DNA of 64,000 bases from Shigella phage ESh20. A model generated the notes under the pieces. The model was given only the letters and a program-made list of their open reading frames with translations, had not been told where the DNA came from and made no database searches. The stretch lies in sequence record ON528730, one strand, 5' to 3'. Shown one piece after another: positions 11,036 to 52,225 of this stretch. The number at the start of each line of letters is the position of its first letter. The stretch's first letter is position 1. Both the position numbers and the translations under genes were made by a program.

Positions 11036-13735
11036 ATGGACAATGTAGATTTCGAAAAATTACATTTGGTTGGTGATACAGAAACTGATGGGTTGCTCCT
11101 TGAGTTTACAAAAGCACACGTAATGGCTTTCGCAGACTATAAAGATGACAGTGATGAACCTGCTGTGTGGGTTTTCACTGATGAGCCTATTCTTGGTCAC
11201 AAGTATACAAAATACATCAAAGGTGGTCTGCGTGAAGGTGTTGAGTTTGCACTGAAAGCTAAACGTCTTTGCATACATAATGGTTTAGGTTATGACTGGT
11301 GGGTGTTTAATCACATTGCACCTGACCTGTGGAACTTTGAGAATCCTAAGTGCAAGCCTTGGAGTGACTTCTTTCAGGATTCACTTATCCAATCTCGCGT
11401 ACAGTGGATGGATAGACCTACACCAAAAGGTTACAAAGGTGCTCATGGTTTGGCTGCATGGGGTGCTCGTGTTGGTGTTCGTAAACCAGAGATTGAAGAG
11501 TGGGGTGTCTGGAATGCAGAGATTCTTACTCGTGTTGTAGAAGATATTAAGATTAACGCCAAAACTAAACGTGCTCTTGATAATGAGTACCTCAAGCTTA
11601 AGAAGTGTGGTGTTGACACTTATGAAACCTACATGCGAGCTAAAGAAACATCTTTCTGGATGAGTCAGCAAGCTATCAACGGTTGGAAAGCTGATGTAGA
11701 ACTTATGCAGTTCCACGTTAAAGAGCTTGACAAGTTAACTAATGAGTTGGCTGCTGAGGTTGAACCACACCTTCCACCAACTATTAAGACAAAAGGTAAA
11801 GTCACAGGTGAAGAATTTGCCAAGTCTTGGAATGAGTATGTAGATACATTTGGTCACGTTGACGGTTTAAAAAGGATTACCAAGCACCCTAAGACAAAGT
11901 ATCGTGAACAGATGCGTGAAGGTGAGTTGAAGCAGTACCCTATCAAGCCATATGGTAAGCCAACCACAAAGATTTTTAATGTTGAGAAACGCAACTGCTA
12001 CACTCCAACTAACACGGTCACAAAAGAAGAGTACCCTGAAGGTTTTGTAGCAATGAAAGATGCTCGTGCAGTTTGTAATGAACTGAATGAGAAGATTGGC
12101 AAGAAGTGTAAAGATTGGAAGCCAGTTAAGACTGTGAAAACTGTGAAGTACTACAACGTTCACGTTGTTAATCACTTTGAGTTAGAGTCTAGTCGCTACA
12201 CTGGTTTGATTGATGCACCATTCACACCAATTGAGTTTGAAGTTTCACGAATGACTCAGGTAGCTGTGGTGAAGGATTACTTAAAATCCGTTGGCTGGAT
12301 TCCTGATGATTGGAACTATAAAAAAGATTCTGACGGTCGTCCTATCAAGGTTTGCAGGTTCAAAGACAACAAAAAGATGATTCGCAAACATCCTAAGTGG
12401 GATGAGATGGTTGAACGTTGTGGGTTGAACTATATTGAGCATGAAGGTGTCTACTACATCGAGCATAACTGGTCTGTTAAGAAGTACACAGATGTGCTTG
12501 AACCTTGCTTGATTAGGACTTCACCAAAGCTTACAGAGTCTTCTTATGATACAATCGAAGGTGAGCTTGGACAGAAGATTGCGAAGTACTATACTTTGAT
12601 GCACCGACGCAGGACTATTGAGAACTCAAAGGATGATGAGAAAGGTTGGCTGAACCAGATTCGTCCAGATGGTCGTTTGAGTGCAGGTGCAATGGTGTTT
12701 GGTACTTCTACTGGACGTATGACTCAGTATGGTATTGTAAACGTACCTTCTGGTGCTGCTGTTTACGGTGAGCCAATGAGGGCAGTGTGGATTTGTGAAG
12801 AAGGAACCAACGTAGTATCTGTTGATATGAACTCTGCACAGCTTGTACTACTCTGTAACTTCATGGGTGATAAAGACTTCACCAAAGCGGTAACAGAGGG
12901 TAAAGAAGAGATTGAGTTTGTTCGTCAAGAGGATGGAAGATACTACTGCAAACACTTTGACCAGTATCTGAATCCAGAGATTGACAAGTATCTGCGTTAT
13001 GACTCTGAAAACGATTTGTACGTAGTTTACTCAGGGACTGATGCTCACACTCTGAACAGTATCTACTTCAGCCTTAATGATGAGCAAGATATCTTGACTT
13101 GTCGTGCTACTCAGGATGAGAATCTTCTTCATGAGATTAGCAAGGGACGTAAGAAAGCTAAGAATGGTATCTATGCCCTGTTGTTCGGTGCAGGTGATGA
13201 GAAGTTTGCTAAAACAATTAAAGCAGCAACTACTCAGGAAGGTGCATTGACTAAGCAGACTTACTTTGTGCGTTTGCCGAAGATTAAGAAACTGTTAGAC
13301 AACTTGGAAGCTGATTTCAAAGCAACTAAGAAAGCACTTGAAGAGGTGTTTGGTAAAACTGCTGCGATAGCTAAAGGTGGTTTTGTGAAGGTTGCTGGAG
13401 CTTGGCTGTGGTGTAAGTCTCCACACAAGCTGTTAAATTACCTTTTGATGGGTTCAGAAAGTCAAGTCCAGAATGAAGCAATTAACCTTGCATGTCGTAG
13501 AGCATATGATGAAGGGTTGATGAAACTAAATGGGCGTAAGCCAGCTATTGGAGCTAGACTTCTTCTGGCATACCACGACGAAAATAGTTGGGAATGTCCA
13601 GAAAGTATGACTCAAGAAGTTAAGGCTATTACTGACTGGATGTACGGACAAGCTTCTAAAAACCTTGGACTAAGGAAAGAAACCTTGGTAACAGGTACTG
13701 GTAAAGTTGGTAAGAGCTGGTTGGAAGTTCACTAA
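11036..13735 (+). CDS. DNA polymerase, family A, with 3'-5' exonuclease domain
   Basis: Exo I motif DTETDGL; motif B-like RKKAKNGIYALLFG; motif C HDE. Confidence 0.9.
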   Translation: MDNVDFEKLHLVGDTETDGLLLEFTKAHVMAFADYKDDSDEPAVWVFTDEPILGHKYTKYIKGGLREGVEFALKAKRLCIHNGLGYDWWVFNHIAPDLWNFENPKCKPWSDFFQDSLIQSRVQWMDRPTPKGYKGAHGLAAWGARVGVRKPEIEEWGVWNAEILTRVVEDIKINAKTKRALDNEYLKLKKCGVDTYETYMRAKETSFWMSQQAINGWKADVELMQFHVKELDKLTNELAAEVEPHLPPTIKTKGKVTGEEFAKSWNEYVDTFGHVDGLKRITKHPKTKYREQMREGELKQYPIKPYGKPTTKIFNVEKRNCYTPTNTVTKEEYPEGFVAMKDARAVCNELNEKIGKKCKDWKPVKTVKTVKYYNVHVVNHFELESSRYTGLIDAPFTPIEFEVSRMTQVAVVKDYLKSVGWIPDDWNYKKDSDGRPIKVCRFKDNKKMIRKHPKWDEMVERCGLNYIEHEGVYYIEHNWSVKKYTDVLEPCLIRTSPKLTESSYDTIEGELGQKIAKYYTLMHRRRTIENSKDDEKGWLNQIRPDGRLSAGAMVFGTSTGRMTQYGIVNVPSGAAVYGEPMRAVWICEEGTNVVSVDMNSAQLVLLCNFMGDKDFTKAVTEGKEEIEFVRQEDGRYYCKHFDQYLNPEIDKYLRYDSENDLYVVYSGTDAHTLNSIYFSLNDEQDILTCRATQDENLLHEISKGRKKAKNGIYALLFGAGDEKFAKTIKAATTQEGALTKQTYFVRLPKIKKLLDNLEADFKATKKALEEVFGKTAAIAKGGFVKVAGAWLWCKSPHKLLNYLLMGSESQVQNEAINLACRRAYDEGLMKLNGRKPAIGARLLLAYHDENSWECPESMTQEVKAITDWMYGQASKNLGLRKETLVTGTGKVGKSWLEVH

Positions 13736-48120: not shown

Positions 48121-48376
48121 CATTAAATCTTTGTAGAGAACTGCTAAGACGCCAAAGCAACAATGGTATCAAATGCCTTAACAATTCTCTAAAAAGACCT
48201 ATTGGCCTTTGCATAGTCTTGCTTAATCCGGTGACTAGAACCTTTGGAGAGCTTGATACTATCTCTTCTCCGTGACACCTACTAGGTGCTTTACCAGTGC
48301 CGTGTACGCCAATACACGAAGAGGAAACCTGAAACACTTGCTCGAACAAATAGTCTCAGCTTTAAATCTTATTAGG

Positions 48377-48464
48377 CGGTAGATAAAGGAGTCGAACCCT
48401 CACCGTATCTCTACAATGGCAATAGTTTTCAAGACTATTTGGCTTCCATTAGCCGCTACCTACC
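48377..48464 (-). tRNA. tRNA-Ser (anticodon TGA), type II, CCA not encoded
   Basis: T-loop TTCGACT, long variable region, anticodon arm ATAGT-CTTGAAA-ACTAT, acceptor GGTAGGT/ATCTACC. Confidence 0.5.
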
Positions 48465-48477
48465 CCTAATAAGACTT

Positions 48478-48560
48478 TGGCATGGGACGGAGGATTCGAA
48501 CCCCTTTGAGTAAGTTTTGGAGGCTTACGCACATGCCTTAGTGTCTTAACATCGTCCCAT
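48478..48560 (-). tRNA. tRNA-Trp (anticodon CCA), enlarged D region
   Basis: Perfect 7-bp acceptor ATGGGAC/GTCCCAT, T-loop TTCGAAT, anticodon loop CTCCAAA, about 8 extra nt in D region. Confidence 0.5.
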
Positions 48561-48724
48561 ACTATATTTCGAAGCTTACCCTGTTATCTCAACACTGTCA
48601 AGCTTCTTCTCAGATTATTTACATGTTCTGGAAAACATGAGATACAGACCACCTCCTTATGAGATTGACTCTTTCAAGTCAATGCGGAGACCCATAAAGG
48701 TCGTCATAGTAATCTGCTAACTAA

Positions 48725-48843
48725 TTGGCAGTCAAGGTAGGAGTCGAACCTACTTACTATTAAAGGGAGCTACCCTTCAGCAACTATCCGACTTTCGTTT
48801 ATCTCTTAACGCGTATCCAAGATAACTTACTCGTGTTGTCTTG
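48725..48843 (-). ncRNA. tRNA-like element with about 40-nt internal insertion (not a canonical tRNA)
   Basis: CCA-rc and 7-bp acceptor AGTCAAG paired with CTTGACC 119 nt apart; canonical T-arm GTAGG-TTCGACT-CCTAC; no canonical anticodon arm identified. Confidence 0.4.
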
Positions 48844-49178: not shown

Positions 49179-49254
49179 TTGGTACTGGTAGGTGGAATCG
49201 AACCACCGATATTCCCTTATCAGGGGAGTGTTATAACCTTCTTAACTATACCAG
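49179..49254 (-). tRNA. tRNA-Ile (anticodon GAT)
   Basis: T-arm GGTGG-TTCGATT-CCACC, anticodon loop CTGATAA. Confidence 0.65.
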
Positions 49255-49256
49255 CA

Positions 49257-49333
49257 TTGGAGGTTCAGGTGGGAATCAAACCCACATTCATAGGGCTTAT
49301 GAAACCCTTGCATTACCTTATCTGCGACTGAAC
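49257..49333 (-). tRNA. tRNA-Met (anticodon CAT), elongator-type (G1:C72 paired)
   Basis: Perfect acceptor GGTTCAG, T-arm GTGGG-TTTGATT-CCCAC, anticodon loop TTCATAA. Confidence 0.6.
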
Positions 49334-49415
49334 CATTATAAGTTGCCCCTTTGTAGAGAACTGATTGAGTGGGTGTTTCCAGCCGCGCATGTGTTCTTCA
49401 GTTAAGGGGCGAATT

Positions 49416-49491: not shown

Positions 49492-49914
49492 ATTAAATCA
49501 TCTTTGCAGTAACCTACGCAAACCTTGCTAAAGGGTTTGTAGAGTCATCTCTTATAAGCTAATCTAGAATCATGCTCAAGAGACTCTTCGGCACTCATGG
49601 GACGACTGGTTAGCTCCATAAGTCACTGCAAAGAGGATTACCAGACCGTATTTATCTTAAGTGCTTCCATTACACCAACACGCCGTAACGTGTGAAGGAA
49701 TCGAACCTTCGCCTTTTCTTTATAAGAGAAATAGATTGTTTATTGTTTGCTGTAAACGGTCTTCTGTAAAATTGTTGGAACCAGACCAAGTTTTAAATTT
49801 TTCAAATTAAATTGGCTTGAAATATTAAAATTGCTTGCTGTATTTGGTCTTCTGCTCCTTTAAAGAATACTCGTAAGAACTCTTTAAGGGAGGGGCTAAA
49901 AAGCCCTCTCAAAT

Positions 49915-50231: not shown

Positions 50232-50315
50232 CATGTTAGTATTACCAGACCGTATCTTTTCATTTTTTGCCTATAAAAAATTTTAAGTGTTTGCTGTAAA
50301 CGGCCTTCTGTAAAT

Positions 50316-50392
50316 TTGGAGGCGGGTGTAGGAGTCGAACCTACCGATAACATGCTAATGAGACATGTGAGACACCCTTTCTCTATACCCGC
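50316..50392 (-). tRNA. tRNA with CAT anticodon and unpaired position 1:72 (initiator-like or Ile2-like)
   Basis: T-arm GTAGG-TTCGACT-CCTAC, anticodon loop CTCATTA closed by T:G pair, U1:C72 mismatch. Confidence 0.5.
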
Positions 50393-50479
50393 AATTCTTA
50401 ATGACCAGACCAAATCTTTTTTGGATTTCTATGCGCGAAATTGAAAAGTTTGTTTGCTGTAATTGGTCTTCTGTCAAAA

Positions 50480-50557
50480 CTGGCATTCCCGAAGGGACTT
50501 GAACCCTCAAACCACACCTTGAAAGGGTGTTGACTTTACCTAATTTGTCTACGGGAA
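50480..50557 (-). tRNA. tRNA-Glu (anticodon TTC)
   Basis: Perfect acceptor CGGGAAT/ATTCCCG, T-loop TTCAAGT, anticodon arm ACACC-CTTTCAA-GGTGT. Confidence 0.7.
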
Positions 50558-50563
50558 TATAAT

Positions 50564-50643
50564 TTGGTCTCCGTTGAAGGATTTGAACCTTCGACCCCTT
50601 GCTCCCAAAGCAAGTGCTGCTAAACCAAACTGAGCTAAACGGA
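50564..50643 (-). tRNA. tRNA-Pro (anticodon TGG)
   Basis: Perfect acceptor, T-arm GAAGG-TTCAAAT-CCTTC, anticodon arm CTTGC-TTTGGGA-GCAAG. Confidence 0.7.
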
Positions 50644-50775
50644 GATAATCTTTTTAACAACCTATGTAACAACTATAACACTATTTTTTAGTGTCTGTCA
50701 AGAGGTTTTTTAAAATAATTTGATTTATTTCAGAAAACTTCTTTTTCGTTTCTATGTAGAACATATTAAAGGGTA

Positions 50776-50809: not shown

Positions 50810-52225
50810 TTACCAATCGTAGCGTTCAATAATTACTGCTTTGAGCATTACGCTGATAGGGTCAAACTTCTCACCACCAAGCAAAGCTTTTAAAGTGGCT
50901 GGAGAGAAACCAGATACCATCGCTACACCGTTATCCTTTACAGACACTTCGCAAGTACCGTTACGGTTTGCTAAGTACCAGAATACCAGTTGTGGCATCT
51001 CATATCCAGCTTTCTTGTACTTTTCTTGAATTGCTTCAAAGTTAGTACGACCATCTGCTCCATCAACCTGATTAAACTGCATATCAGAGAAGATGATAAG
51101 CTTACTAGGCATCTCTTTCTGAGTCAAGTTGTTTTTAACACCAGTCTCAAGGATTCTTGCAAAAGCAGCTTGTAGGTCAGTTGAACCATACTCTACATGA
51201 CTCTTCACTTGACGTAAGCGAGTCTGTAAATCACCACTCAATGTGATGAAGTGAGGTCTGCTAGAGTAAACCATCAATTCATCTTTAAAGCAACCTGTAT
51301 TACGTTCTGAAACGTACAGGGCTAAAGATACACCAATGTCTAGCGCTGTAACAGAACCATGTCGCTCCCAAGTCATAGATGAAGATACATCTGCCATGCA
51401 CAGAATGTTCTCACCCTCTTTCATCCAGTTTGGTAAAGCTTTCCACTGCTCATTTGCAACGGTTGCATTACCATAACCGACTGACTTTGTAATGTCATAA
51501 GGGTAGACTGCACCAGCATTAATCTTTGTCTCACCTTTAGTCAGTGCTGCAATGTATGCTGCATAACGCTCACCATCTTTACGACTGAAGAGTTTTTGAT
51601 AACGTGCAGCAGCCAGTGAAGGAAGCTTGCTGTAATCAATCTCTCCGAACTCATTTGCTGAAATCTTTTGTTCAACAGTATCAGACAGTGCTGACAGAAG
51701 AACTCGATACTGCTTCTCTGAAAGATTTGCAAACTTACAGAAACGACGAACAAAACGCATGTGTCGTGATTTTACTCGTGGTAACCATTTTGCTGCCAGA
51801 GCCGATGTTGCAGGGTCTAACAGTGCAGCTTCTAAATGCTTGAAAGCATCTGTTTCGTAACGTGTACCAACAAAGATTTTAAAGTCGTCATAACGACCTA
51901 AATCAGAAATCTTGTCCATGATACGTAACACTTGGAACTCATCAAGAATCCCGTCAGAGATTGCTTTAGTAAGAGTATAACGGAACGCTTTACGCTCACC
52001 CATACCTTCTCGTGCATCTCGCATATGTAACAGGATTCGAACTGCTACATCAATATCTTCTCGCATTGCCTTGTAAAACAAGTTTGGAAGAACTTCTACG
52101 TTTGTTCTGCTTGAACCAGCAGCTTTGTAGAAATCTACCAGTGCAGACATTGAAGAGGTGTGGTTAACAGCACCGTTTTCAGTTAAACCTGCATGTAAAT
52201 GCGAGTGTTTAAATAATTCGCTCAT
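50810..52225 (-). CDS. vWA-domain protein with N-terminal domain of unknown function
   Basis: MIDAS-like DxSxS motif in ILCMADVSSSMTWERHG at about residue 279; 471 aa; adjacent to tRNA array. Confidence 0.55.
   Translation of the reverse strand: MSELFKHSHLHAGLTENGAVNHTSSMSALVDFYKAAGSSRTNVEVLPNLFYKAMREDIDVAVRILLHMRDAREGMGERKAFRYTLTKAISDGILDEFQVLRIMDKISDLGRYDDFKIFVGTRYETDAFKHLEAALLDPATSALAAKWLPRVKSRHMRFVRRFCKFANLSEKQYRVLLSALSDTVEQKISANEFGEIDYSKLPSLAAARYQKLFSRKDGERYAAYIAALTKGETKINAGAVYPYDITKSVGYGNATVANEQWKALPNWMKEGENILCMADVSSSMTWERHGSVTALDIGVSLALYVSERNTGCFKDELMVYSSRPHFITLSGDLQTRLRQVKSHVEYGSTDLQAAFARILETGVKNNLTQKEMPSKLIIFSDMQFNQVDGADGRTNFEAIQEKYKKAGYEMPQLVFWYLANRNGTCEVSVKDNGVAMVSGFSPATLKALLGGEKFDPISVMLKAVIIERYDW

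What the first reader, a model, noticed from the sequence alone, without database searches (positions are those of the whole stretch)
50316..50392. CAT-anticodon tRNA with unpaired 1:72 position alongside a normal elongator tRNA-Met
Two CAT-anticodon tRNAs are present. The one at 49257-49333 has a paired G1:C72. The one at 50316-50392 has a U1:C72 mismatch and the anticodon loop CTCATTA, reminiscent of initiator tRNA (unpaired 1:72) or of a lysidine-modified tRNA-Ile2. A phage-encoded initiator-like tRNA would be notable.
Basis: seen in the sequence. Interest (0 to 1): 0.35.

Follow-up and report, generated by a model that had tools for sequence, protein, structure and literature searches.

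The report
Phage-encoded initiator-like methionine tRNA
Besides an ordinary methionine tRNA, this Shigella/E. coli phage carries a second one whose top end is built like the special tRNA that starts every bacterial protein; it is the overlooked counterpart of phage T5's annotated 'initiator tRNA', with an altered anticodon arm that may matter for escaping host toxins.

Summary
The window is a Mooglevirus (about 99.8% Shigella phage Sf15). It has a U1·C72 mismatch, the loop CUCAUUA (U37), U73 and an encoded CCA, plus an extra A between positions 7 and 8.

It is not tRNA-Ile2. A37, C4:G69, C29:G41, A73 and a paired 1:72 are all missing.

It is the Ounavirinae homologue of phage T5 gene tRNAfM(CAU), which RefSeq notes as 'initiator tRNA fMet'. 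The two share the acceptor stem at pairs 2-7, a pyrimidine·pyrimidine 1:72 mismatch, A11:U24, G30:C40 with U31·G39, and U73.

Pairs 2-6 equal those of E. coli tRNAfMet, so most formyltransferase determinants are present. Only the middle one of the three initiator G:C pairs is kept.

In 69 distinct viral relatives, 1:72 pairs in 19% of cases (never G:C), against 94-100% for all but one of the other stem pairs counted (28:42 pairs in 61%).

The most likely function is a non-canonical initiator. This is inferred, not shown. Two recent papers state that such phages lack tRNA-fMet and use that to dismiss evasion of VapC, so the gene deserves a test. It is a new member or variant of a known kind, of moderate interest.

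The parts
50317..50393 (-). The CAU tRNA gene, 77 nt with encoded CCA. This is the initiator-like tRNA.
   Evidence: ARAGORN; Rfam tRNA 31.7 bits; cloverleaf minimum-free-energy fold; annotated tRNA-Met in Sf15 and Sf17.
50387..50393 (-). Acceptor 5' strand U1 G2 C3 G4 G5 G6 U7. U1 (50393) faces C72 (50321) unpaired.
   Evidence: Pairs 2-6 are identical to E. coli tRNAfMet.
50386..50386 (-). Extra A between positions 7 and 8, giving a 3-nt connector A-U8-A9.
   Evidence: ARAGORN drawing and bracket string 'sss'. Invariant in Ounavirinae. Absent from the T5, KVP40 and L194 relatives.
50369..50383 (-). D arm: stem G10 A11 G12 A13 / U22 C23 U24 C25 (A11:U24), loop AAGGGUG.
   Evidence: Among the 26 tRNAs only this one and tRNA-Glu have R11:Y24.
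50351..50367 (-). Anticodon arm: C27-G43, A28-U42, U29-A41, G30-C40, U31·G39. Loop C32 U33 C34 A35 U36 U37 A38. The anticodon CAU is at 50360-50358, U37 at 50357 and G39 at 50355.
50328..50344 (-). T arm GUAGG-UUCGACU-CCUAC.
   Evidence: Compensatory variants GCAGG/CCUGC and GUUGG/CCAAC occur in relatives.
50317..50327 (-). Acceptor 3' strand A66 C67 C68 C69 G70 C71 C72, discriminator U73 (50320), CCA (50319-50317).
49258..49334 (-). The second CAU tRNA: G1-C72, C11:G24, loop UUCAUAA, U73-CCA. It lies next to tRNA-Ile(GAU) at 49180-49255 and is the probable elongator tRNA-Met.
   Evidence: The T5 pair tRNAM(CAU)-tRNAI1(GAU) has the same arrangement.
50672..50701 (-). Sigma-70-like promoter match (TTGACA-18-TGnTATAGT, 11 of 12) upstream of tRNA-Pro. 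It may start the Pro-Glu-target-Asn... transcription unit.
   Evidence: This is a consensus match only.
50400..50478 (-). Repeat unit immediately 5' of the tRNA: a stem-bulge-stem hairpin with the motif UUACAGCAAAC.
   Evidence: the repeat finder D8; fold.
50238..50312 (-). Repeat unit of the same kind immediately 3' of the tRNA.
   Evidence: the repeat finder D8/D17; fold.

Best explanation
The gene encodes a functional, non-canonical initiator-type methionine tRNA. It is the Ounavirinae counterpart of phage T5 tRNAfM(CAU).

The proposed mechanism is inferred, step by step, from established identity rules:
1. The tRNA is transcribed with its neighbours and trimmed to U1...CCA76.
2. Host MetRS charges it through the CAU anticodon.
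3. Host formyltransferase accepts it because 1:72 is unpaired and G2:C71, C3:G70, G4:C69 and A11:U24 are present.
4. The mismatch and the formyl group keep it away from EF-Tu.
5. IF2 delivers it to the P site, where only G30:C40 of the usual three G:C pairs is available.

Such a tRNA should compete poorly with abundant host tRNAfMet. It would become useful when the host initiator is depleted or damaged during infection.

The altered 3' side of the anticodon arm (U37-A38-G39 instead of A37-A38-C39) changes the site where enteric VapC/MvpT cuts tRNAfMet. Toxin escape is therefore a plausible selective reason, but it is untested.
For: Shown here:
- The cloverleaf has U1·C72 unpaired.
- Acceptor pairs 2-6 are identical to E. 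coli tRNAfMet, and A11:U24 is present.
- In 24 distinct Ounavirinae sequences, position 1 is U (21) or C (3), C72 is invariant and G never occurs. The tRNA varies in 12% of columns against about 52% in the flanks.
- blastn links the 3' 61 nt to the T5-like tRNA at 80% identity, E 1e-6.
- The T5 gene is annotated 'initiator tRNA fMet'. T5 separately carries tRNAM(CAU) and tRNAI2(CAU), so the mismatch type is the third class.
- T5 and KVP40 have U1·U72, A11:U24, G30:C40 and U31·G39.
- In 69 distinct viral relatives, 1:72 is paired in 19% of cases (only A:U or U:A), against 94-100% for T-stem and anticodon-stem pairs except 28:42 (61%). Many have the canonical C1xA72 with A73.

From the literature:
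- Formyltransferase determinants are an unpaired 1-72 (major), with A73, G2-C71, C3-G70 and G4-C69 (minor), plus R11:Y24 (PMC9976931).
- The anticodon alone suffices for MetRS (same review).
- The middle pair G30-C40 is the essential one. The cg/GC/cg and au/GC/gu mutants sustain E. coli (PMC5389676).
- VapC of Shigella and Salmonella cuts tRNAfMet between A38 and C39 (PMC4105405). VapC toxins recognise both sequence and structure (PMC7180214).
Against: - Two of the three hallmark G:C pairs are absent (U29:A41 and U31·G39).
- U37 removes the A37·(G29-C41) triple that characterises the initiator anticodon arm (PMC2528185).
- The discriminator is U73, not A73.
- The extra nucleotide between 7 and 8 is unusual.
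- tRNAscan-SE 2.0 gives the identical Sf14 gene only 32.3 bits, with best isotype model Cys at 28.8 and Met 12.5 bits lower. The authors state that no tRNA-fMet is present.
- Overall identity to E. coli tRNAfMet is barely higher than to Ile2 or Met (46, 42 and 41 of 77).
- The fold is not significantly more stable than shuffled sequences (z -1.54).
- I found no experiment showing charging, formylation or initiation for this tRNA or for the T5 one. The T5 label may rest on sequence alone.
- A11:U24 also occurs in the phage tRNA-Glu.
Confidence: 0.55

Rival explanations
1. It is simply a second elongator tRNA-Met. The odd top pair is tolerated, and the tRNA raises the supply for AUG codons during infection.
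For: ARAGORN and tRNAscan-SE call it Met by anticodon. It lacks the three G:C pairs. It shares U73-CCA with the other CAU tRNA. ATG is used more in the phage than in the host (2.9% against 2.1%).
Against: The 1:72 mismatch is kept across three phage families with different mismatching bases and never becomes G:C. By established knowledge, a mismatch there weakens EF-Tu binding. R11:Y24 and the tRNAfMet-type acceptor stem have no role in an elongator. U37 removes the t6A37 expected in ANN-reading elongators. A regular elongator is already present. T5 keeps all three CAU classes.
Confidence: 0.17
2. It is a dual-purpose tRNA that serves in both initiation and elongation, as the single mitochondrial tRNA-Met does.
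For: Relatives with A1:U72 or U1:A72 (13 of 69) have the weak top pair of a kind seen in dual-use or eukaryote-type initiators. E. coli can be sustained on a single engineered tRNA-Met (PMC6265465, listed; abstract only read).
Against: The window's own tRNA has a true mismatch, and the phage also carries a separate elongator. Nothing was tested directly.
Confidence: 0.1
3. It is not used in decoding. It could be a decoy or sponge for a host tRNA-targeting enzyme, a processing or structural element of the tRNA operon, or a decaying gene.
For: Covariance-model scores are low (31.7 and 32.3 bits). It has an extra nucleotide, U37 and a non-canonical discriminator. It is flanked by repeated hairpin units. 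T5's tRNA region also holds 'stable RNAs with unknown functions'.
Against: Purifying selection is strong and stem changes are compensatory. U8, A14, G18G19, U33, the T loop and the encoded CCA are all intact. The CAU anticodon is invariant in all relatives.
Confidence: 0.12
4. It is a tRNA-Ile2 whose C34 is converted to lysidine, so that it reads AUA.
For: It has a CAU anticodon in a phage with low G+C content. The cluster has no ARAGORN-called UAU tRNA.
Against: U37 cannot carry t6A37, a strong bacterial IleRS determinant. C4:G69, U12:A23 and C29:G41 are replaced by G4:C69, G12:C23 and U29:A41, and the discriminator is U73 rather than A73. 1:72 is unpaired. AUA is rare in the phage (RSCU 0.28). 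T5's Ile2 is a different tRNA with G1:C72 and A73.
Confidence: 0.03

Closest known systems
Phage T5 tRNAfM(CAU), locus T5t14 (NC_005859.1 32428-32505), annotated 'initiator tRNA fMet'. The sequence is identical in about 200 T5-like phages.
   Same: The acceptor stem at pairs 2-7 is the same. Both have a pyrimidine·pyrimidine mismatch at 1:72, A11:U24, G30:C40 with U31·G39, U73-CCA and a T arm GUAGG-UUCGAyU-CCUrC. In both, the gene lies downstream of tRNA-Pro(UGG) behind a promoter. blastn gives 80% identity over the 3' 61 nt.
   Different: The mismatch is U·C here and U·U in T5. The window gene has an extra A between positions 7 and 8, U37 instead of A37, U29:A41 instead of A29:U41 and a different D-arm sequence.
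E. coli initiator tRNAfMet (metZ, metW, metV, metY)
   Same: Both have the CAU anticodon, an unpaired 1:72, G2:C71, C3:G70, G4:C69, G5:C68, G6:C67, A11:U24, G30:C40 and C32/A38.
   Different: E. coli has C1xA72 against U1·C72 here, A73 against U73, G7:C66 against U7:A66, and A37 against U37. It has all three G:C pairs at 29-31:39-41, against one here. It has no extra nucleotide.
Engineered E. coli tRNAfMet '3GC' mutants that keep only the middle pair (cg/GC/cg, au/GC/gu; Shetty et al. 2016), and natural unconventional initiators of Mycoplasma and Rhizobium
   Same: Only G30:C40 of the triplet is kept. Such tRNAs are formylated and can sustain E. coli, and work best when wild-type initiator is scarce.
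   Different: Those are laboratory mutants or cellular initiators with otherwise canonical bodies. The phage tRNA has Y29 and Y31 with a U·G closing pair, and U37.
E. coli tRNA-Ile2 (ileX) and T5 tRNAI2(CAU)
   Same: They share the CAU anticodon in the gene, and G2:C71, C3:G70 and U7:A66.
   Different: Ile2 has G1:C72, C4:G69, C5:G68, C11:G24, C29:G41, A37 and A73. None of these is present in the window gene.
Vibrio phage KVP40 unannotated CAU tRNA (NC_005083.2 177260-177335)
   Same: It has U1·U72, G2:C71, C3:G70, G4:C69, A11:U24 and the anticodon arm CUAGU-CUCAUAA-GCUAG with G30:C40 and U31·G39.
   Different: It has A73, A5:U68, A37 and a normal connector. It belongs to a different phage family (Straboviridae).

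Membership tests
Bacterial initiator tRNA (tRNAfMet) | Anticodon CAU | tested here: met
Bacterial initiator tRNA (tRNAfMet) | No Watson-Crick pair between positions 1 and 72. This is the major formyltransferase determinant and an EF-Tu antideterminant. | tested here: met
   U1·C72. The mismatch is conserved as U·C or C·C in Ounavirinae.
Bacterial initiator tRNA (tRNAfMet) | G2:C71, C3:G70 and G4:C69, the minor formyltransferase determinants | tested here: met
   The rule is from PMC9976931.
Bacterial initiator tRNA (tRNAfMet) | Discriminator A73 | tested here: not met
   The discriminator is U73. 39 of 69 viral relatives do have A73.
Bacterial initiator tRNA (tRNAfMet) | Purine 11 : pyrimidine 24 in the D stem | tested here: met
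   A11:U24. Of the other tRNAs in the cluster, only tRNA-Glu also shows it.
Bacterial initiator tRNA (tRNAfMet) | Three consecutive G:C pairs at 29:41, 30:40 and 31:39 | tested here: not met
   The pairs are U29:A41, G30:C40 and U31·G39. Only the middle pair is kept, which is the essential one according to PMC5389676.
Bacterial initiator tRNA (tRNAfMet) | A37 and the special anticodon-arm conformation (A37 triple with G29-C41) | tested here: not met
   U37 and U29:A41. The rule is from PMC2528185.
Bacterial initiator tRNA (tRNAfMet) | Classified fMet by the tRNAscan-SE isotype model | not testable with these tools
   tRNAscan-SE is not available here. The published run on the identical Sf14 gene gave Met by anticodon, best isotype Cys at 28.8, and was not called fMet. 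Some records call the T5-like homologue tRNA-fMet.
Bacterial initiator tRNA (tRNAfMet) | Formylated in vivo and used at start codons | not testable with these tools
   This needs experiments.
T5-type phage tRNAfM(CAU) family | Sequence homology to T5t14 | tested here: met
   blastn gives 80.3% identity over 61 nt, E 1e-6, to many T5-like phages. See also the alignment.
T5-type phage tRNAfM(CAU) family | Acceptor xGCGGGU/ACCCGCy with x·y unpaired or weakly paired | tested here: met
T5-type phage tRNAfM(CAU) family | Anticodon arm ...G30 U31-CUCAUNA-G39 C40... | tested here: met
T5-type phage tRNAfM(CAU) family | Standard 2-nt connector at positions 8-9, and A37 | tested here: not met
   There is an extra A and U37. 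U37 is shared with the 88-kb contig L194.
tRNA-Ile2 (lysidine, reads AUA) | A37 (t6A37), C4:G69, U12:A23, C29:G41 and A73 (IleRS determinants), with a paired 1:72 | tested here: not met
   The gene has U37, G4:C69, G12:C23, U29:A41, U73 and U1·C72. The rules are from PMC9976931.
tRNA-Ile2 (lysidine, reads AUA) | C4:G69 and C5:G68 as TilS determinants (from my own knowledge of Ikeuchi et al. 2005; not re-read) | tested here: not met
   The gene has G4:C69 and G5:C68. E. coli ileX has C4:G69 and C5:G68.
Elongator tRNA-Met | Paired 1:72, Y11:R24, A37 and A73 | tested here: not met
   All four differ.

The most novel reading that the evidence does not exclude
Phages of at least three families (Ounavirinae, T5-like Demerecviridae, KVP40-like Straboviridae), and many uncultured viruses, may carry a dedicated 'minimal' initiator tRNA. 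It has an unpaired 1:72, a tRNAfMet-type acceptor stem, and only G30:C40, closed by U31·G39.

Its re-made anticodon arm would make it insensitive to toxins that target the initiator, such as VapC/MvpT (which cuts A38^C39). The phage could then keep starting protein synthesis after the host initiator has been destroyed.

This would overturn the published statement that Shigella and Salmonella phages avoid encoding tRNA-fMet.
Probability: 0.2. Interest if true: 0.7.

Novelty: new member of a known kind. Interest (0 to 1): 0.4.

Why it matters
If this tRNA initiates translation, Felix O1-like and Moogle-like phages bring their own start tRNA. These phages are widely used as Salmonella, Shigella and E. 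coli biocontrol agents.

It would be a natural example of an initiator that works with only the middle G:C pair. That situation has so far been studied mainly with engineered E. coli mutants.

It also bears on a current debate. Two recent papers (eLife 2023; BMC Genomics 2025) argue that phages of VapC-carrying enterics do not encode tRNA-fMet. The second uses this to dismiss nuclease evasion for exactly this tRNA cluster. The gene studied here is the missing candidate, and it makes that hypothesis directly testable.

If it is not an initiator, it is still a conserved tRNA with an unexplained U37, U73 and a 3-nt connector.

Tried and rejected
- blastn of both CAU tRNAs against 5,426 E. coli genomes found nothing, even at E 10. 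The E. coli reference tRNAs were therefore fetched by coordinates.
- Rfam at gathering threshold over 45-52 kb missed the target. It appeared only in a short-stretch search.
By my estimate of pattern frequency, most hits were chance. Only about 13 tRNA-like hits in assorted MAGs survived the acceptor filter, too few and too uncharacterised to say whether any cell uses such a tRNA as its own initiator.
- Whole-sequence identity to E. coli fMet, Met and Ile2 barely discriminates.
- The minimum-free-energy z-score is unremarkable.
- An automatic 11:24 tally across the viral family was unreliable for a subgroup with a tiny D arm.
- The primary VapC papers (Winther & Gerdes 2011; Walling & Butler 2018) are not held. 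The cleavage site is therefore cited second-hand, and the VapC sequence determinants remain unknown to me.
- No paper describing phage initiator tRNAs that lack the three G:C pairs was found.
- Side branch on the neighbouring ORF: there was no PDB sequence match with a single sequence or a 7-sequence profile, and the single-sequence AlphaFold model was too poor to search (pLDDT 39.9). The Ro60-like idea stays untested.
- The tRNA-Ile2 reading was considered and rejected (see the rival explanations).

Full report
**What the window is**

The 1.6 kb around the finding is 99.8% identical to Shigella phage Sf15. It matches 272 phage records, mostly Felixounavirus, Mooglevirus and relatives within Ounavirinae. 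ARAGORN finds 26 tRNA genes between 45.6 and 50.6 kb, all on the minus strand. This is the same 26-tRNA cluster analysed for phage Sf14 in BMC Genomics 2025 (PMC12482277).

**Checking the observation**

Two tRNAs have anticodon CAU, at 49258-49334 and 50317-50393.

Read on the minus strand, the target is UGCGGGU-AUA-GAGA-AAGGGUG-UCUC-A-CAUGU-CUCAUUA-GCAUG-UUAUCG-GUAGG-UUCGACU-CCUAC-ACCCGCC-U-CCA. U1 faces C72 unpaired. Positions 2-7 form six Watson-Crick pairs. The loop is CUCAUUA. The ViennaRNA minimum-free-energy structure is the same cloverleaf with 1 and 72 open. The other CAU tRNA has G1:C72.

- an extra A between positions 7 and 8
- U73 followed by an encoded CCA
- A11:U24
- U37
- an anticodon stem of C27-G43, A28-U42, U29-A41, G30-C40 and U31·G39

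**The register question**

Rfam's tRNA model scores the gene at only 31.7 bits. It starts at G50392 and deletes position 66. That is the same six pairs numbered differently.

Two facts favour the ARAGORN register:
- In 25 of the 26 tRNAs, CCA follows the discriminator directly. CCA at 50319-50317 therefore fixes U73 and C72.
- The T5 homologue lacks the extra A and shows an unambiguous 7-position stem with U1·U72.

**Is it a real gene under selection?**

In 24 distinct Ounavirinae sequences from IMG/VR and GenBank, 9 of 77 tRNA columns vary. In the flanks, 98 of 181 and 91 of 183 columns vary.

The variable positions are position 1 (U in 21, C in 3), the D loop, the variable loop, and T-stem positions that change in a compensatory way: GUAGG/CCUAC, GCAGG/CCUGC and GUUGG/CCAAC. 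C72 never changes and position 1 is never G. The mismatch is therefore maintained.

**Relatives elsewhere**

blastn of the gene also hits T5-like phages, at 80% identity over the 3' 61 nt (E 1e-6). There the feature is annotated variously as tRNA-Met, tRNA-fMet, pseudo or OTHER.

The T5-like tRNA is UGCGGGU-UA-GAUC...GAUC-G-CUAGU-CUCAUAA-GCUAG-...-ACCCGCU-U-CCA. It has the same acceptor pairs 2-7, U1·U72, A11:U24, G30:C40, U31·G39 and U73. The sequence is identical in 204 records, including the reference T5 genome.

T5 carries three CAU genes:
- tRNAM(CAU), next to tRNAI1(GAU)
- tRNAfM(CAU), just downstream of tRNAP(UGG)
- tRNAI2(CAU)

The window shows the same neighbourhoods. The order is promoter-like site, Pro, Glu, then the target. 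Further on, Met(CAU) lies directly beside Ile(GAU).

KVP40, a T4-like Vibrio phage, has an unannotated member with U1·U72, A73, A11:U24 and the same anticodon arm as T5.

Pattern scans of IMG/VR gave 69 distinct CAU tRNAs with this acceptor stem and the ...GU-CUCAUNA-GC... arm:
- 1:72 forms a standard pair in only 13 of 69 (19%). All of these are A:U or U:A, never G:C.
- T-stem pairs form in 94-99% of sequences. Anticodon-stem pairs 27:43 and 29:41 form in 97-100%, and 28:42 in 61%. Pairs 30:40 (G:C) and 31:39 (U·G) were fixed by the search pattern and say nothing independent.
- 21 have the canonical C1xA72, and 39 have A73.

The family was selected by pattern. The fixed features are therefore partly built in, but the state of 1:72 was free to vary.

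**Comparison with identity rules**

The E. coli references were fetched from MG1655.

Against tRNAfMet, the target shares:
- CAU
- an unpaired 1:72
- G2:C71, C3:G70, G4:C69, G5:C68 and G6:C67
- A11:U24
- G30:C40

It differs at:
- 73 (U, not A)
- 7:66
- 29:41 and 31:39
- 37 (U, not A)
- the extra A

According to the identity review PMC9976931, formyltransferase recognises the unpaired 1-72 as its major determinant. A73, G2-C71, C3-G70 and G4-C69 are minor ones, and R11:Y24 is listed as an initiator feature. The CAU anticodon alone suffices for MetRS.

According to PMC5389676, of the three G:C pairs the middle one (G30-C40) is essential and can suffice. The mutants cg/GC/cg and au/GC/gu sustain E. 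coli, although less well. The target keeps exactly that pair.

Several points count against a canonical initiator:
- U37 and U29:A41 abolish the A37·(G29-C41) triple of the initiator anticodon arm (PMC2528185).
- tRNAscan-SE 2.0 on the identical Sf14 gene gives 32.3 bits, with best isotype model Cys at 28.8 and Met 12.5 bits lower.
- The Sf14 authors state that neither Met tRNA is classified as fMet.
- A11:U24 is not unique in the cluster, because tRNA-Glu also has it.

**tRNA-Ile2 is excluded**

- t6A37 is a strong bacterial IleRS determinant, and the gene has U37.
- C4:G69, U12:A23, C29:G41 and A73 are all replaced.
- 1:72 is open.
- AUA is rare in these phages (RSCU 0.28).

**Most likely function**

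I conclude, with moderate confidence (0.55), that this is the Ounavirinae version of the T5-type phage initiator tRNA.

Only the structure, conservation and homology are shown. Every biochemical step is inferred: MetRS charging, formylation, EF-Tu exclusion, and P-site entry through G30:C40.

Such a tRNA should compete poorly with abundant host tRNAfMet. It would matter when the host initiator is scarce.

One concrete reason for the re-made 3' side of the anticodon arm concerns VapC/MvpT. This toxin of Shigella and Salmonella cuts tRNAfMet between A38 and C39 (PMC4105405), and VapC toxins read both sequence and structure (PMC7180214). The phage tRNA has U37-A38-G39 there.

This point matters because eLife 2023 says such phages avoid encoding tRNA-fMet. 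The Sf14 paper uses the supposed absence of tRNA-fMet to dismiss nuclease evasion. I rate the toxin-escape reading at about 0.2.

**Rival explanations**

- Plain second elongator (0.17).
- Dual-use tRNA (0.10).
- Non-decoding RNA or decaying gene (0.12).
- tRNA-Ile2 (0.03).

**Novelty and score**

The gene itself is already annotated as tRNA-Met in public records. A phage initiator tRNA is already annotated in T5. It is therefore a new member of a known kind, and a somewhat divergent one, with U37, an extra nucleotide and U·C.

The added value has three parts:
- the link between the Ounavirinae gene and T5 tRNAfM
- the demonstration that the open 1:72 and the single G:C pair are conserved across phage families and metagenomes
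- the correction of a published negative statement

Interest is 0.4.

Noticed in passing
window 50400-50478, 50238-50312, 49778-49858 and 49637-49772 (all minus strand): Four copies of a repeat unit. The 5' half is CAGAAGACC(N)UUACAGCAAAC and the 3' half is ...GGUCUGGU. Each folds into an outer 4-5 bp helix, a 3-nt bulge, a 7-bp helix and a large loop. Two copies flank the target tRNA. They resemble the 'stable RNAs with unknown functions' annotated between T5 tRNA genes, and loosely resemble Y-RNA stems. Rfam gives only weak chance-level hits (Dicty Class I, E 0.075-0.17).
   Followed up: partly
window 49686-49760 (-), inside the long repeat unit: A tRNA-like element that ARAGORN misses (Rfam tRNA 30.1 bits). 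It has a good T arm (GAAGG-UUCGAUU-CCUUC) and an anticodon arm UUUCU-CUUAUAA-AGAAA, that is anticodon UAU (Ile, AUA). The acceptor and D arms are poor. It could be a degenerate tRNA-Ile(UAU) or a tRNA-like module of a small RNA.
   Followed up: partly
window 50810-52225 (-): A 471-aa ORF directly upstream of the tRNA cluster: Pfam DUF2828 plus DUF7788, and PHROG 850 'RNA-binding protein'. The secondary structure from a low-confidence model (pLDDT 39.9) is helical over the N-terminal half, with an alpha/beta C-terminal half. A D-x-S-x-S motif (D279, S281, S283), like the metal site of vWA domains, is invariant. The layout recalls Ro60 (TROVE plus vWA), but no PDB sequence or profile match was found and the single-sequence model was too poor to use.
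   Followed up: partly
window 49258-49334 and 50317-50393 (-): Both CAU tRNAs have discriminator U73. Most other tRNAs of the cluster keep the discriminator I recall for their E. coli counterpart, for example Cys and Gly U, His C, and Gln, Asp, Asn and Glu G (E. coli values from memory, not checked here). U73 on Met-type tRNAs is unexplained.
   Followed up: partly
window 45.6-50.6 kb, tRNA cluster: Eight of the 26 tRNAs start with a G1·U72 wobble pair: Leu-UAA, Val, Lys-CUU, Leu-UAG, Arg-UCU, Ile, Lys-UUU, and one more in the same pattern. tRNA-Gln(UUG) has an A1xC72 mismatch, which fits GlnRS opening that pair.
   Followed up: no
window 49258-49334 (-): The presumed elongator tRNA-Met is itself unusual. 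It has U32 (loop UUCAUAA), a T loop UUUGAUU with U56 instead of C56, three G:C pairs at 28-30:40-42 and a U31·G39 closing pair. tRNAscan-SE's best isotype model for the Sf14 copy is Cys (63.8), 18.6 bits above Met.
   Followed up: no
window 48721-48756 and 48473-48503 (minus-strand sense): Isolated tRNA 3' fragments that no tool calls as tRNAs. One has the T arm GUAGG-UUCGACU-CCUAC, identical to that of the target, followed by CUUGACUG-CCA. They may be remnants of disrupted tRNA genes.
   Followed up: partly
window 48375-48464 (-): For tRNA-Ser(UGA), ARAGORN's register gives a mostly unpaired acceptor stem and no CCA. Rfam prefers the tRNA-Sec model (37.9 bits, below its gathering score) with a 9-bp acceptor helix. 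The true ends are uncertain.
   Followed up: no
IMG/VR loci such as L015, L021 and L023: A large group of 74-nt viral CAU tRNAs (for example CGCGGGUAGGGUGGUCACCACACCGGUCUCAUAAGCCAGGUGCAUCGGCAGUUCGAAUCUGUCACCCGCAUCCA). They have a tRNAfMet-type acceptor stem, C·A, A·A or A:U at 1:72, and a miniature D arm without G18G19.
   Followed up: no
window 50355-50672 (-): A 105-aa TTG-start ORF overlaps the target tRNA and tRNA-Glu and is almost certainly spurious. Several GenBank records (HY02, SUSP2, FM4b) annotate a 'hypothetical protein' over this tRNA instead of the tRNA.
   Followed up: no
L194 (IMG/VR 88-kb contig) 11506-11580: A more distant relative of the target in a 22-tRNA cluster. It also has U37 (CUCAUUA), but with U1:A72, A73 and a normal 2-nt connector. 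U37 therefore predates the extra nucleotide and the U73 of Ounavirinae.
   Followed up: partly
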